Origin: Candidatus Brocadiia bacterium
GTDB taxonomy: Bacteria; Planctomycetota; Brocadiia; SM23-32
Length of the DNA: 64,000 nucleotides
Assembly: GCA_046538485.1 (NCBI GenBank)
Contig: JBKHIT010000001.1
Coordinates: 64,001 to 128,000, forward strand
Direction of reading: 5' to 3'
The notes beneath the pieces were generated by a model. The model saw only the letters and a list, made by a program, of their open reading frames with translations. It did not search any database and had not been told where the DNA came from. This document shows, one piece after another, positions 61,707-64,000 of the stretch (the stretch's first letter is position 1; each line of letters starts with the position of its first letter). A program made the position numbers and the translations under genes.

Positions 61707-62317
61707 TCAGGGGACAATCCGTTCGTCATCCCACAGCAGGCTGTAATGGTCCCAGTTTTTCGCAGACGAGTAGGGATCCCAGGAGTATCCCCAGCCGCCC
61801 CAGGGCGGGGCTTTCAGAAAGAATGCTGAGCCACCCCGTCGCAGAATGGTTATGCCGCGATCCCCATGGGGCAACGGTGTATTACCGTCCACACGGCAGG
61901 CGTTCAGCGGCCACCACGGAATGGGCAGACGACGGCTCTTTTGTTTCGCTCCGCCGCTGCCGTGACCGGTACTGTAAACCGCTGGAACGTGGTAGCAATA
62001 ACCGGCCTGGCGGTTACCCCAGTATCCGGTCCGCGAGTACTTACCGGCAGGGCAATATTGCATCTCAAATCGGACATAATTTCCCAGCAAACCGAAACCT
62101 TTGGGGTTATCCGGATTCCCATGCAATCGTCTATCGCAGAGCCAGTGATAATTATCCGGCAGATACGATTCGTTATCCTCCGCATAGAACATGATACCCA
62201 GGAAAATCTGTTTCTGTTGATTCAGGCAGACGGTCGTTTTCGCCGCCTCCCGCGCCCGCTCCAGCGCCGGCATAAGCATCGCAGCGAGAATGGCGATGAT
62301 CGCAATGACCACCAGCA
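61707..62317 (-). CDS. 3' exon of a prepilin-type N-terminal cleavage/methylation (DUF1559-like) gene interrupted by a group II intron
   Basis: [40 protein letters not shown]; degenerate H-x9-DG-like tail [15 protein letters not shown]. Confidence 0.88.
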
Positions 62318-64000
62318 GTACTATTAGAAGGAAGCCTCTGCGTGTTGCGGCAATCGGCTTCCTCCCACAGTCCAAACCGTGCGTGTGGTTCTCCCCCACA
62401 CGGCTCTCCACGCTGTAATTTCGCGCACAGCATTCGTCACAGTAGGTGAGGTCCATATTCAAGACCCTTCTCATAGAAGAAACTGTTCGGCCAGCGGCGG
62501 TATCCGACAATATCCTTGCGAGCACGGCGACGACGCAGAAATAAGCGAAGTTGCTGACACGCATAACTCGTCAGCTCCCGAGCGGCCTCGTAGGAATTGC
62601 CAATACGAAAATAATTCGCCCATCCCCGCAGCTTGCGGTTCAGGACCGCTATGGCCTCCATAAGGGGCTCGCCGAGTGGTATTTTCTTCACCCGCTCTTT
62701 GATTCCGGCTCGCGCCTTCTTCATACTTTTTGCTCGAGGGAACTTGATTCTCACATGCCGACGTCTCTCTCGGGAGTAGGCCTCCTTGTAAGTGAAGCCA
62801 AGGAAGTCAAATCCCTCCCGCACGTGGACCAATGAGGTCTTCGCGCGGTTGAGCATCAGATGCATCTGCTCCAGCATGTGCCGGGCGACTTTCAATGCCT
62901 GCTCGGCCTGCTGGGGACTGTCACAGAGAATCACCATGTCATCAGCAAACCGAACGAGCTTGCCGTTGTCGTCGTTCCACCTCCGGTCAAATTCATTGAG
63001 AAAGATGTTGCTCAGTAGCGGCGATATAACGCCGCCCTGAGGCGCCCCGACCTTCGTGGGGCTGACAAGGCCGTTCTCCATGACTCCTGCCTTGAGCCAT
63101 CGGCGAATGAGGTGCAGGACCCTTTTGTCGGTCACACGCCTTCTCACAAACTCCATAAGAAGCTCATGATTAATCGTGTCGAAGTAGCTCTTGAGATCAA
63201 GATCTACGACCCACTTGTGTCTGTTGGTTCGCCTATGCACCAGCTCCGCCGCCTCTGTGTTGCTGCGTTGTGGTCGGAAACCATATGAACACTCACAAAA
63301 GTCCGCTTCGAACAGGGGTTCAATCACCAGCTTCACCGCCATTTGAACCACCCGATCCTTCACTATAGGAATTCCGAGTGGCCGCTTGCTGTTCCAGCCC
63401 TTTTGGATATAGCACCGCAGGACCGGTAAAGGGTTGTAAGTCCCCGCTCGTAGCTCCTTCTGAATCTCTAAGAGGAACTCAACGGCTCCCTCCTCCTTGA
63501 TCTGTTCGATGGTCACTCCGTCCACCCCGCTGCTTCCAGCGTTACGGGCGACTCTCCGCCATGCCTCTTGCAGAATATCATAGCCGCACACCTTATCAAA
63601 CAATAGACCAAAACGTCTACCACTGCTGTTCTTGGCTGCTCCGTAGAGCTTCCGCTGCAAGGACCTGACCCACTCTTGCGACGAGATGTATATAGCCTTT
63701 TCGGCATTCATCTCAGGTCTACTCCTTACCTCGAAAACGTTTACAGGTTAATGGCCCTTTGCTACGGGCGTTTCTGCTGAGCGCCCGATCCTTGCTACTA
63801 TGACCATCTCCGACTCCCGTCGTGGCATCAGTACGGTCTTCAGCATCTCGCCTTGCCCCGCCACTTATCCTCCCGACGCCTCTCGTGCGCTTTGACCGTG
63901 GGCGGACGTCTGCCCATTGGCCAGGTTGTTTGGGGCCGGGACAACCCATGTGTTGTTCTAACCCGGAATCTTGGTCGGAACCACGACGGTCCTCCCCAGT
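62318..64000 (-). mobile_element. Group II intron (IIB-like), 5' end outside window
   Basis: Domain V GAGCCGTGTG..GCACGGTTT (62406-62374) with AGC triad; domain VI ACTGTGGGAGGAAGCC/GGCTTCCTTCT-A-ATAGT with bulged A at 62325, then terminal AC; GGAGTCGGAG..CATAGTAGC domain III motif near 63800. Confidence 0.92.
62437..63711 (-). CDS. ltrA: Group II intron reverse transcriptase/maturase, no endonuclease domain
   Basis: [51 protein letters not shown], domain X LRGWANYF. Confidence 0.95.

What the first reader, a model, noticed from the sequence alone, without database searches (positions are those of the whole stretch)
62290..64000. Group II intron inserted inside the prepilin N-methylation motif of a DUF1559-like gene
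Seen: domain VI folds with a single bulged A 8 nt from a terminal AC. This puts the 3' splice site at 62318/62317, so the exon starts TG CTG GTG GTC ATT GCG ATC ATC, i.e. after the first base of the first Leu in (IE)LLVVIAII. Known: the [13 protein letters not shown] motif is the most conserved stretch of DUF1559/pseudopilin genes, which are highly multi-copy in Planctomycetota; bacterial group II introns choose targets by EBS-IBS pairing and mostly sit in mobile DNA or intergenic sites. Inference: this may be an intron lineage specialised on a large paralogue family, using the shared motif as a renewable homing site and making pilin-like gene expression depend on splicing.
Basis: partly seen in the sequence, partly recalled or inferred. 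Interest (0 to 1): 0.8.

Follow-up and report, generated by a model that had tools for sequence, protein, structure and literature searches.

The report
Group II introns homing into prepilin motif
A self-splicing mobile intron sits inside the most conserved stretch of a pilin-like gene and belongs to a lineage that always inserts at this one spot in a family of over a hundred genes, and most of its relatives carry their own spare copy of the gene start they displace.

Summary
A 2067-nt group II intron lies on the minus strand, with its 3' end at window 62318 and its 5' GTGTG 384 nt beyond the window. It splits ...[14 protein letters not shown]... between bases 1 and 2 of the Leu6 codon, and joining the exons restores the frame.

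It is not a one-off. The same genome holds 8 such 5' junctions in unrelated paralogues. Another 13 flanks with the motif visible come from two other genomes, one genome-collection contig (L001) and metagenome contigs. All 21 are at this same position.

The reverse transcriptases (RTs) of these introns form one clade (SH-aLRT 99). More distant RTs (55% identity or less) sit elsewhere.

EBS1 covaries with the target codon:
- GUUCGAU with ATY sites
- GUUCGAC with GTC sites
- GUUCUAU with ATA and GTA sites

New here: in 9 of 10 variants the 3' strand of domain VI re-encodes x-F-T/S-L-I/V-E in frame with exon 2. In 6 variants an ATG and a basic leader precede it. Unspliced RNA could therefore still yield the protein, which is inferred and not shown. 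The window's own copy is the degenerate exception (FLLIV, no nearby ATG), so this gene probably does need splicing.

No RNA data exist. Six literature searches found no paper linking group II introns with prepilin or pilin genes or DUF1559.

The parts
61707..62317 (-). Exon 2 of the interrupted prepilin-like gene. It starts with bases 2-3 of the Leu6 codon, TG CTG GTG..., and the range includes the stop codon.
   Evidence: The frame is open and reads [27 protein letters not shown]... Pfam DUF1559 scores only 16.6 bits, below the cut-off.
62318..64000 (-). Group II intron, nt 385-2067 of 2067. The first 384 nt lie beyond the window on contig C44, up to 128384. They include the 5' GTGTG, most of domain I, and EBS1 at intron nt 279-285.
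   Evidence: Aligns with relatives.
62318..62371 (-). Domain VI: a 16-bp helix at 62320-62371, branch-point candidate A at 62325, and the 3' terminal AC at 62319-62318.
   Evidence: Folds. Four helix pairs show changes on both sides between this copy, the multi-copy variant and the G148 variant.
62318..62336 (-). The 3' strand of domain VI reads G-F-L-L-I-V in frame with exon 2. This is a degenerate version of the G-F-T-L-I-E 'spare motif' that relatives carry.
   Evidence: It differs from the multi-copy variant by three non-synonymous base changes, while RNA pairing is kept.
62374..62406 (-). Domain V, the catalytic hairpin with the AGC triad.
62437..63711 (-). Intron-encoded reverse transcriptase/maturase, 424 aa. 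It has no DNA-binding or endonuclease domain and carries the active-site motif FADD.
   Evidence: TIGR04416 415 bits against a cut-off of 300. RVT_1 and GIIM hits. FADD motif.
63712..64000 (-). Ribozyme sequence upstream of the RT ORF: the 3' part of domain I through domain III and the start of domain IV.
   Evidence: Aligns with L001, L108, L110 and L112.

Best explanation
This is an intact, endonuclease-less mobile group II intron. It belongs to a lineage specialised on one site: between bases 1 and 2 of the Leu6 codon in the class-III signal-peptide / N-methylation motif (G|F-T/S-L-I/V-E|L-L-V-V) of a very large family of prepilin-like genes.

Shown from sequence:
- The boundaries, domain V, domain VI, the RT/maturase and restoration of the frame on joining.
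- Repeated insertion at the same site in unrelated paralogues of three genomes and in contigs from public collections.
- A 7-nt EBS1 loop complementary to the last 7 nt of exon 1. Three EBS1 alleles match three codon variants of the target.
- Tandem introns whose second copy sits exactly at the first copy's 3' end.

Inferred mechanism:
- The intron is transcribed with the host gene.
- The maturase helps it splice by branching at the bulged A.
- The lariat-RT particle finds other paralogues by EBS1-IBS1 pairing and reverse-splices into them.
- Because the RT lacks an endonuclease, cDNA synthesis is primed at replication forks, by analogy with other such introns.
- The motif is under strong protein-level constraint in more than 100 genes, so the homing site cannot mutate away.

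Further inference, about 50% likely: the 3' strand of domain VI doubles as coding sequence for the displaced residues. In most variants it is preceded by an ATG, a basic leader and often a GGAGG. Exon 2 could then be translated from unspliced RNA, and prepilin-peptidase cleavage would give the same mature protein.

The window's own copy has lost this feature, so its host gene probably needs splicing.
For: Anatomy.

Same genome:
- 8 5' junctions follow GFTLIE/AFTLIE plus Y, each with a different leader.
- 5 contigs start with an identical intron 3' end followed by diverging LLVVIAII exons.
- Those exon-2 ORFs are intact at 220-293 aa.
- The exon-2 bodies are only 22-30% identical to each other, while the intron ends are identical. 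This indicates spread by mobility, not by gene duplication.
- In run X1 the contig pieces of the variant's domain I have depth about 167-182, against 24-34 for single-copy pieces.

Other sources:
- L001 (RT 72% identical), L108, L110, L112 and L113.
- G024, in the same family.
- G148, in another family of the phylum, with 6 + 2 junctions.

Clade: 5 motif-site RTs form one branch with SH-aLRT 99 in a 79-row tree.

Outgroups show no motif: 0 of 105 other loci and 0 of 8.

EBS1:
- GUUCGAU is invariant in 7 sequences and goes with ATC/ATT sites.
- GUUCGAC in L137 goes with 6 of 6 GTC sites.
- GUUCUAU in L155 goes with ATA-GAG-C, GTA-GAG-C and TAGAGC flanks.
- Host motif usage matches: G000 has LIE 129 and LVE 1, and G148 has LVE 47 and LIE 10.
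- 0 of 8 occupied G000 sites use ATA, against 41 of 135 free sites.

Domain VI coding:
- MRLWRRGFTLIE
- MREWKAGKRLGFTLIE
- MVNRMRKTLRFTLIE
- MSNYMQKAFRFTLIE
- MSKKVEDWLEGKRKAREFTLIE
- MKKAMFKKKKGGKFTLIE
- ..RTGFSLIE and ..CVAFTLVE
- Differences between variants in the F-T-L-I-E codons are synonymous or T/S, and the opposite strand compensates.

Other support:
- Tandem introns in L113 and L112.
- Relics with a dead ribozyme in L125/L144 and G024. The L125/L144 gene still reads as an intact 348-aa ORF through the intron-borne motif.
- G000 encodes two Peptidase_A24 genes.
Against: - No RNA evidence of any kind exists. All listed runs are DNA contigs.
- All Rfam hits for this lineage are below the gathering scores, at 33-41 bits.
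- EBS2 and EBS3 were not identified.
- The five contig-end 5' junctions and the five contig-start 3' junctions cannot be paired. Their interior is not assembled, so it is unknown whether those copies carry an RT.
- Against the spare-leader idea: the window's copy and the G148 type-1 variant have no nearby ATG.
- The start codon and SD of the short-loop variants lie inside the domain VI helix.
- The intron-internal promoter-like element has a non-canonical 13-14 nt spacer and was not listed by the promoter scan.
- In 4 of 6 variants the last 7 nt of the intron are a perfect match to the intron's own EBS1. The mimicry could therefore be an RNA-level or historical effect and not coding.
- One copy with a spare leader (C20:82316) has nevertheless lost its exon 2.
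- The G024 downstream ORF stops after about 150 aa.
- The wobble tolerance of EBS1 could be chance, about 1 in 8. The absence of ATA among occupied sites is only marginal (0.70^8, about 0.06).
Confidence: 0.85

Rival explanations
1. The GFTLIE-like sequence at the intron's 3' end is never translated. It is an RNA/DNA-level mimic of the homing site, or a historical capture of an exon-1 end. It persists because it pairs with the 5' strand of domain VI, or with EBS1, or because it is refreshed by gene conversion from the flanking exon 1.
For: - The last 7 nt equal a perfect IBS1 for the intron's own EBS1 in the L001-type, C20:82316, G148 C496-type and (if the ends are paired correctly) G148 L137-type variants.
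- The mimic is used as a homing site, which produces tandem introns.
- In short-loop variants the ATG and SD are buried in the helix.
- The window's copy keeps the helix but not the coding.
Against: - EBS1 pairing explains only 7 of the roughly 19 nt.
- It does not explain the in-frame ATG 7-17 codons upstream in 6 variants, the basic leaders, or the GGAGG 7-9 nt before the ATG in L001, C20:82316 and L113.
- In G148 type-1 and the G000 multi-copy variant the mimic (ATAGAAC) does not fully match the local EBS1, yet it still encodes LIE.
- All differences between variants in the F-T-L-I-E codons are synonymous or T/S.
Confidence: 0.35
2. The copies arose by duplication of an already interrupted gene and not by homing. 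The intron would then be a vertically inherited passenger with no site specialisation.
For: The host family is large and partly arranged in tandem. L112 and G024 share a homologous flank.
Against: - Exon-2 bodies are 22-30% identical and the leaders are unrelated. The five intron ends are 100% identical over the 43-59 nt that are assembled.
- Three EBS1 alleles track three codon variants.
- Tandem insertions exist.
Confidence: 0.03
3. This particular copy is an inactive relic, and the host gene is a pseudogene.
For: - Its domain VI motif is degenerate.
- Several relatives are decayed: C20:82316 has an internal deletion of nt 324-1630 and a disrupted domain V, G024 retains only domain I, and L125 is a 137-nt relic.
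- The review passages read state that most bacterial copies are truncated or inactivated.
Against: - The RT ORF is full length with an FADD motif and strong TIGR04416 score.
- Domains V and VI and EBS1 are intact, and domains I-III align throughout with relatives.
- Both exons are open, with a plausible TTG start and a GGAG upstream.
Confidence: 0.15

Closest known systems
EcKTE56.groEL, the subgroup IIB1 intron inserted in the groEL stop codon of E. coli (PMC12584367, abstract and section list read)
   Same: Both are bacterial group II introns specialised on one conserved position of a cellular gene. Both are site-specific retrotransposons that colonise a particular genetic context.
   Different: The groEL target is a single-copy housekeeping gene, and the site is the stop codon, so the coding sequence is not split. 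Here the target is inside the coding sequence of a family of over 100 paralogues. EBS1 alleles partition codon variants, and the intron re-encodes the displaced residues.
Class C (IIC) introns at intrinsic terminators and attC sites, including outward-facing promoters in IIC-attC introns. Source: review PMC4424553, passages read. The promoter paper (Leon et al. 2010) was seen only as a reference title.
   Same: These are endonuclease-less introns that exploit a motif present many times per genome. The intron may supply expression signals for the downstream gene.
   Different: IIC introns recognise a DNA stem-loop and insert outside coding sequence. Here recognition is by a 7-bp EBS1-IBS1 pairing inside an ORF. 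The supplied signal would be a start codon, leader and first five mature residues, not a promoter.
C.te.I1 of Clostridium tetani (alternative 3' splice sites with repeated domains V/VI) and B.a.I2 (review passages; PMC3919590 seen as a listing and abstract start)
   Same: The 3' part of a bacterial group II intron determines which protein is made from the downstream exon.
   Different: Those cases produce alternative fusions by splicing. Here the proposed bypass needs no splicing, and domain VI itself is the coding sequence.
Nested introns of Methanosarcina acetivorans (review passage)
   Same: Repeated site-specific homing into sequence provided by another intron copy, as in the tandem arrays in L112 and L113.
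   Different: In M. acetivorans the flanking exons have no coding ORFs. Here the site recreated at the intron's 3' end is a protein-coding motif.
RmInt1 of Sinorhizobium meliloti (PMC1802570, abstract start seen in a listing)
   Same: An RT without D/En domains that homes into a multi-copy target.
   Different: The RmInt1 target is an insertion sequence (ISRm2011-2), not a host protein family.
Integrative elements that carry a replacement 3' end of the tRNA or tmRNA gene they integrate into (recalled knowledge, from no call)
   Same: The logic is the same: the mobile element brings a copy of the gene segment it displaces, so insertion is phenotypically silent.
   Different: The element type is different (integrase-based) and it replaces the 3' end of an RNA gene. 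No group II intron case turned up in the six literature searches.

Membership tests
Mobile bacterial group II intron | 5' GUGYG and 3' AY boundaries | tested here: met
   GTGTG lies at contig C44:128384 and ...GTAC ends at window 62318. The repeat boundary in five other copies falls at the same bases.
Mobile bacterial group II intron | Domain V catalytic hairpin | tested here: met
   Rfam RF00029 scores 33.6 bits, E 7.8e-4, below the gathering score of 40. The hairpin with the AGC triad is predicted in the minimum-energy fold, z -5.6. The sub-threshold score is the weak point.
Mobile bacterial group II intron | Domain VI helix with a bulged A 7-8 nt from the 3' end | tested here: met
   Three variants share the same architecture, with 4 pairs changed on both sides. 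The long-loop variant L001 folds the same way when domain V is included.
Mobile bacterial group II intron | Intron-encoded RT with a maturase (X) domain in domain IV | tested here: met
   TIGR04416 415.1 bits against a cut-off of 300. RVT_1 142.7 bits and GIIM 43.3 bits. No D/En domain: the protein ends after the maturase region.
Mobile bacterial group II intron | EBS1-IBS1 pairing with the end of exon 1 | tested here: met
   The hairpin loop GUUCGAU at intron nt 279-285 pairs with AUUGAAU, using 2 wobbles. Three EBS1 alleles covary with the target codons.
Mobile bacterial group II intron | EBS2-IBS2 and EBS3/delta pairings | tested here: inconclusive
   There is only one candidate: the invariant AGUGA at intron nt 105-116, opposite U-Y-A-C-U of the Phe-Thr codons. 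The consensus fold pairs part of it elsewhere.
Mobile bacterial group II intron | Splicing and ligated exons in RNA; retrohoming | not testable with these tools
   No RNA holder was listed and all runs are DNA contigs. Mobility is inferred from identical intron ends in genes that are 22-30% identical.
Class C (IIC) group II introns | Insertion just after a terminator or attC stem-loop, outside coding sequence | tested here: not met
   All 21 visible 5' flanks are the coding motif F-T/S-L-I/V-E.
Prepilin-type N-terminal methylation motif proteins (PF07963) | Leader, then G/A|F-T-L-I-E, then a hydrophobic helix | tested here: met
   The motif is read directly across the joined exons. The uninterrupted neighbour scores 29.7 bits against 21.2. 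The joined protein itself was not submitted to Pfam. Two Peptidase_A24 genes are in the genome.
DUF1559 (PF07596) | Pfam score above the gathering cut-off | tested here: not met
   The exon-2 product scores 16.6 bits against 23.3. The host gene of relative L001 does pass, at 40.6 bits.

The most novel reading that the evidence does not exclude
Domain VI of this intron lineage does two jobs. It is the branch-point helix, and it is also a 'spare first exon' made of a start codon, a basic leader and F-T-L-I-E in frame with exon 2.

Consequences if true:
- The interrupted pilin-like gene is expressed even without splicing, and gives the same mature protein after leader cleavage.
- A bacterial group II intron could therefore live inside coding sequence.
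- Its ribozyme could decay harmlessly. The relics in G148 and G024 may already serve as the gene's new 5' end.
- Every insertion recreates a homing site, which explains the tandem arrays.
- EBS1 alleles (..GAU, ..GAC, ..UAU) have radiated to cover the codon variants of one protein motif.
Probability: 0.5. Interest if true: 0.9.

Novelty: new variant of a known kind. Interest (0 to 1): 0.82.

Why it matters
Bacterial group II introns are said to avoid coding genes. A published survey found no preference of group II introns for conserved sites (PMC2814812, abstract). This lineage does the opposite. It lives in the most conserved 7 nt of a gene family of over 100 members, so the host cannot mutate the target away.

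It offers three things to study:
- A natural example of EBS1 retargeting across synonymous and near-synonymous codon variants, which is relevant to targetron design against gene families.
- A way to examine how splicing and translation coexist in bacteria.
- If the spare-leader reading holds, a new route by which a retroelement neutralises its own insertion and later donates a new 5' end to the host gene.

It also explains assembly breaks at prepilin-like genes in the two multi-copy draft genomes examined here (G000 and G148).

Tried and rejected
- **Internal sigma-70 promoter in the long domain VI loop.** TTGACT/TTGCCA...TATAAT is conserved between L001 and L113, but the spacer is 13-14 nt. 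The T-run varies from 7 to 10, and the scan did not list the site. It is not claimed.
- **EBS2 and EBS3.** No convincing assignment was reached. In one search the first row was a wrongly specified stretch of L078, so only the EBS1 hairpin seen in the other four rows was used.
- **Sequencing runs.** No RNA holder was listed. Four DNA runs kept as contigs were laid. No joint skipping exactly the intron appeared among those shown, and 5 joints were not shown. Nothing can be said about empty-site alleles or splicing.
- **C44:138767** (GFSLIE + C + GTGTGTCCC). There is no intron behind it, and an unrelated ORF follows. **C104:8237** was flagged by the looser regex. It has a different sequence and was not examined further.
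- **The 22-nt 5' pattern with 2 mismatches.** It hit 10 further genomes of the phylum (11 places), all in unrelated contexts. The reversed control pattern gave about 15 hits, so these are at chance level.
- **L109/L111.** These are one sequence seen twice. It shares only the first 22 nt with the lineage, sits at another site, and its RT was not among the 40 best matches.
- **Interior of the five-copy variant.** It is not in the assembly. The shortest contig is 3454 nt, so a contig holding only the 2-kb intron would be missing.
- **Intron class (A-F, CL, ML).** It was not determined. Only sub-threshold matches to Rfam group-II-D1D4-4 were found in relatives.
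Full report
**1. The observation**

The window is G000:C44:64001-128000. The following features lie on the minus strand:
- An RT/maturase ORF of 424 aa at 62437-63711. TIGR04416 scores 415 bits against a cut-off of 300, and RVT_1 and GIIM both hit. There is no D/En domain.
- Domain V and a 16-bp domain VI with one bulged A at 62325, the 8th base from the terminal AC (-44.8 kcal/mol, z -5.6).
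- An Rfam Intron_gpII match at 62318-62408 with 33.6 bits, E 7.8e-4, below the gathering score of 40.

Reading on in the contig, the intron begins GTGTGCCC at C44:128384 and is 2067 nt long.
- Exon 1 ends ...GGG TTT ACG CTC ATT GAA T.
- Exon 2 begins TG CTG GTG GTC.
- Joining them restores ...[28 protein letters not shown]....
- The intron therefore sits in phase 1 of the Leu6 codon.
- The exon-1 frame meets a TAA four codons into the intron.
- Exon 1 has a possible TTG start with a GGAG upstream.

**2. It is one of many, all at the same site**

Six-frame scans of the genome find 135 uninterrupted motif sites. Ten sites were flagged as followed by GTGYG. Eight of them share this intron's 5' end (C44, C20 twice, C38, C42, C49, C54, C56) and two are rejected.

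Evidence that the copies spread by mobility:
- Each of the eight has a different leader and its own start signals.
- Five of the eight lie at contig ends with identical intron starts.
- Five other contigs start with an identical intron 3' end (...GGCTTCACTCTAATAGAAC), then diverge into LLVVIAII exons.
- Those exon-2 ORFs are intact at 220-293 aa.
- The exon-2 bodies are only 22-30% identical to each other.
- In run X1 the contig pieces of the variant's domain I have depth 167-182, against 24-34 for single-copy pieces.
- The copies therefore spread by mobility, not by gene duplication.

Only one full RT of this type is assembled. Two C-terminal remnants also exist. The assembly holds no contig under 3454 nt.

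**3. Relatives elsewhere**

| Source | Result |
|---|---|
| Genome collection, 77 loci | Only L001 is close (RT 72% identical); it follows ...AFMFTLIE+C |
| All loci fetched to that point | 2 of 107 sit at the motif: L001 and the window's own locus |
| 101 related genomes | Best full-length RT identity 46% |
| Metagenome scan with the 22-nt 5' pattern | 6 loci. L108, L112 and L113 follow FTLIE+C. L110 shows only GAAC. L109/L111 is a different intron elsewhere |
| Class-wide pattern search, 2 of 132 genomes | Adds G024 (...EFTLIE+T) |
| Phylum sample, 401 genomes | Adds G148 with six copies after GF(T/S)LVE+C |
| Second G148 subfamily | Follows GFSLIE+C, GFSLVE+C and TAGAGC |
| Eight further phylum RTs at 46-49% identity | 0 of 8 at a motif |

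In an RT tree of 79 rows, the five motif-site RTs (the window's copy, L108, L110, L113, L146) form one branch with SH-aLRT 99. That tree used the quick method. Short rows were dropped, so L001 is not in it.

In total, 21 5' flanks show the motif and 2 more are compatible. No clade member was seen elsewhere.

**4. Target recognition**

A hairpin loop GUUCGAU is invariant in seven sequences and lies at intron nt 279-285. It is complementary to AT(C/T) GA(A/G) (C/T). G or U stands opposite each of the three degenerate positions.
- 88 of 135 free sites in G000 pair fully with it.
- The 41 ATA sites mismatch it, and none of the 8 occupied sites is ATA. This is only marginally significant.

EBS1 covaries with the target:

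| Intron | EBS1 | Sites occupied |
|---|---|---|
| G000 and L001-type | GUUCGAU | ATC / ATT |
| G148 L137-type | GUUCGAC | GTC, 6 of 6 |
| G148 C496-type | GUUCUAU | ATA-GAG-C, GTA-GAG-C, TAGAGC |

Host motif usage matches these alleles:
- G000: LIE 129, LVE 1.
- G148: LVE 47, LIE 10.
- G024: LIE 13, LVE 0.

The first exon-2 base is always T. EBS2 was not resolved. The invariant AGUGA opposite U-Y-A-C-U, which would skip the six-fold degenerate Leu codon, is only a candidate.

**5. Domain VI re-encodes what the intron displaces**

In the five-copy variant the last 36 nt of the intron read ATG CGC CTC TGG CGG AGA GGC TTC ACT CTA ATA GAA, that is M-R-L-W-R-R-G-F-T-L-I-E; with the terminal C they are in frame with exon 2. 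The GFTLIE codons form the 3' strand of domain VI.

The L001/L110/L113 type and C20:82316 have a different layout:
- The 5' strand of domain VI follows domain V.
- A loop of about 100-170 nt comes next. It carries GGAGG, an ATG and a leader.
- The F-T-L-I-E codons close the helix, with the bulged A in the Ile codon.
- L110 is a contig that spans exactly one such unit.

Ten variants were read:

| Variant | Residues encoded at the intron's 3' end |
|---|---|
| G000 five-copy | MRLWRRG-FTLIE |
| C20:82316 | MREWKAGKRLG-FTLIE |
| L001 / L110 | MVNRMRKTLR-FTLIE |
| L113 | MSNYMQKAFR-FTLIE |
| L112 | MSKKVEDWLEGKRKARE-FTLIE |
| G024 | MKKAMFKKKKGGK-FTLIE |
| G148 type 1 | ..SRTG-FSLIE |
| G148 relic | ..RRWRTG-FSLIE |
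| G148 type 2 | ..CVA-FTLVE |
| The window's copy | ..TRRG-FLLIV |

- Nine of ten keep the motif, and six have an ATG 7-17 codons upstream.
- Between variants, changes in the five motif codons are synonymous or T/S.
- The opposite strand compensates, with four helix pairs changed on both sides.
- The window's copy keeps the helix but carries three non-synonymous changes.

Glu5 is important for pilin maturation and assembly. This is recalled knowledge and was not tested here. On that basis this gene probably needs splicing.

Because prepilin peptidase cleaves before F+1 (two Peptidase_A24 genes are present), a product started in the intron would mature to the same protein. This step is inferred.

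**6. Consequences seen in sequence**

- The intron's 3' end plus exon 2 recreates a homing site. In L113 and L112 a second intron sits exactly after the first intron's ...FTLIE+C.
- Two relics have a dead ribozyme:
  - L125/L144 is a 137-nt remnant. Its gene still reads as an intact 348-aa ORF through the intron-derived FSLIE, in a host that mostly uses LVE.
  - G024 keeps only domain I, followed by a gene with its own SD, ATG and leader. That ORF stops after about 150 aa.
- C20:82316 is a counter-example. It is internally deleted, its domain V is disrupted and its exon 2 is gone.

**7. What remains unexplained**

In four of six variants the last 7 nt of the intron are a perfect partner for the intron's own EBS1. 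Three explanations are open:
- coding constraint combined with target tracking;
- gene conversion from the flanking exon 1;
- an RNA-level role.

The direct repeat formed by the exon-1 end and the mimic could also favour precise intron loss.

**8. Comparison with what is known**

The review of group II intron evolution lists three bacterial target specificities: homing sites, terminators and attC. It also states that most bacterial introns lie outside housekeeping genes (PMC4424553, passages). A survey reported no preference of group II introns for conserved sites (PMC2814812, abstract).

The nearest specialised case found is the groEL stop-codon intron (PMC12584367, abstract).

Six searches paired 'group II intron' with prepilin, DUF1559, pilin/homing site, Planctomyc-, pseudopilin/type IV pilin/N-terminal methylation, and domain VI/start codon.
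- The first five found no paper linking a group II intron to these genes.
- The sixth listed 12 of its 44 hits, and none of those titles or abstract openings describes an intron-borne start.
- A genome-wide survey paper holds none of the words Planctomyc-, pilin or paralog (PMC8919778). Its supplements were not opened.

**9. Verdict**

The element is a genuine member of the group II intron kind, but it is a new variant. It is specialised on a protein-coding motif of a multigene family. EBS1 alleles partition the codon variants, and domain VI doubles as a candidate spare first exon. The clause about dependence on splicing holds at most for this degenerate copy.

Noticed in passing
window 61214-61278 (-): Sub-threshold match to the Rfam Acido-Lenti-1 RNA motif (30.2 bits against a gathering score of 37, E 6e-4). 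It lies about 430 nt downstream of the exon-2 stop.
   Followed up: no
G000 contigs C65:5580-5669(-), C65:8344-8433(+), C79:9446-9526(+), C113:36673-36753(+): A different group II intron family. After its domain V hits comes a conserved tail of about 70 nt (ACGAAAGGGCGAGCCCCAGATAAGCC...CTACTCTAC) shared by four copies. This may be an unusual 3' region.
   Followed up: no
G000 C20:83040-83090 and C120:535-560: A 16-nt palindrome (TCCCGCG..CGCGGGA) occurs just after the RT remnant's stop codon in both C20 and C120. In C20 a second copy also replaces the upper helix of domain V. It may be a small repeat element.
   Followed up: no
contig C44:128525-130503 (just beyond the window's end, minus strand): Two uninterrupted paralogues of the interrupted gene lie in tandem directly upstream. 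Each has its own leader and the same [25 protein letters not shown] motif.
   Followed up: partly
contig C44:138767 (-), outside the window: RGFSLIE + C is followed by GTGTGTCCCAC and then an unrelated ORF. It may be a chance match or a scar of an old insertion.
   Followed up: partly
L001:36-64: A perfect sigma-70 consensus (TTGACA-17-TATAAT, 12 of 12 matches) lies upstream of the 15-codon exon 1 of the L001 host gene.
   Followed up: no
G034 (complete genome of the same class): At least 17 matches to group II RTs at 39-44% identity, in two near-identical sets. This is a heavy intron load from other lineages, none fetched at a prepilin motif.
   Followed up: partly
window 57560-60889 (-): A 1109-aa ORF with a signal-peptide-like N-terminus lies downstream of the finding. 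It was not analysed.
   Followed up: no
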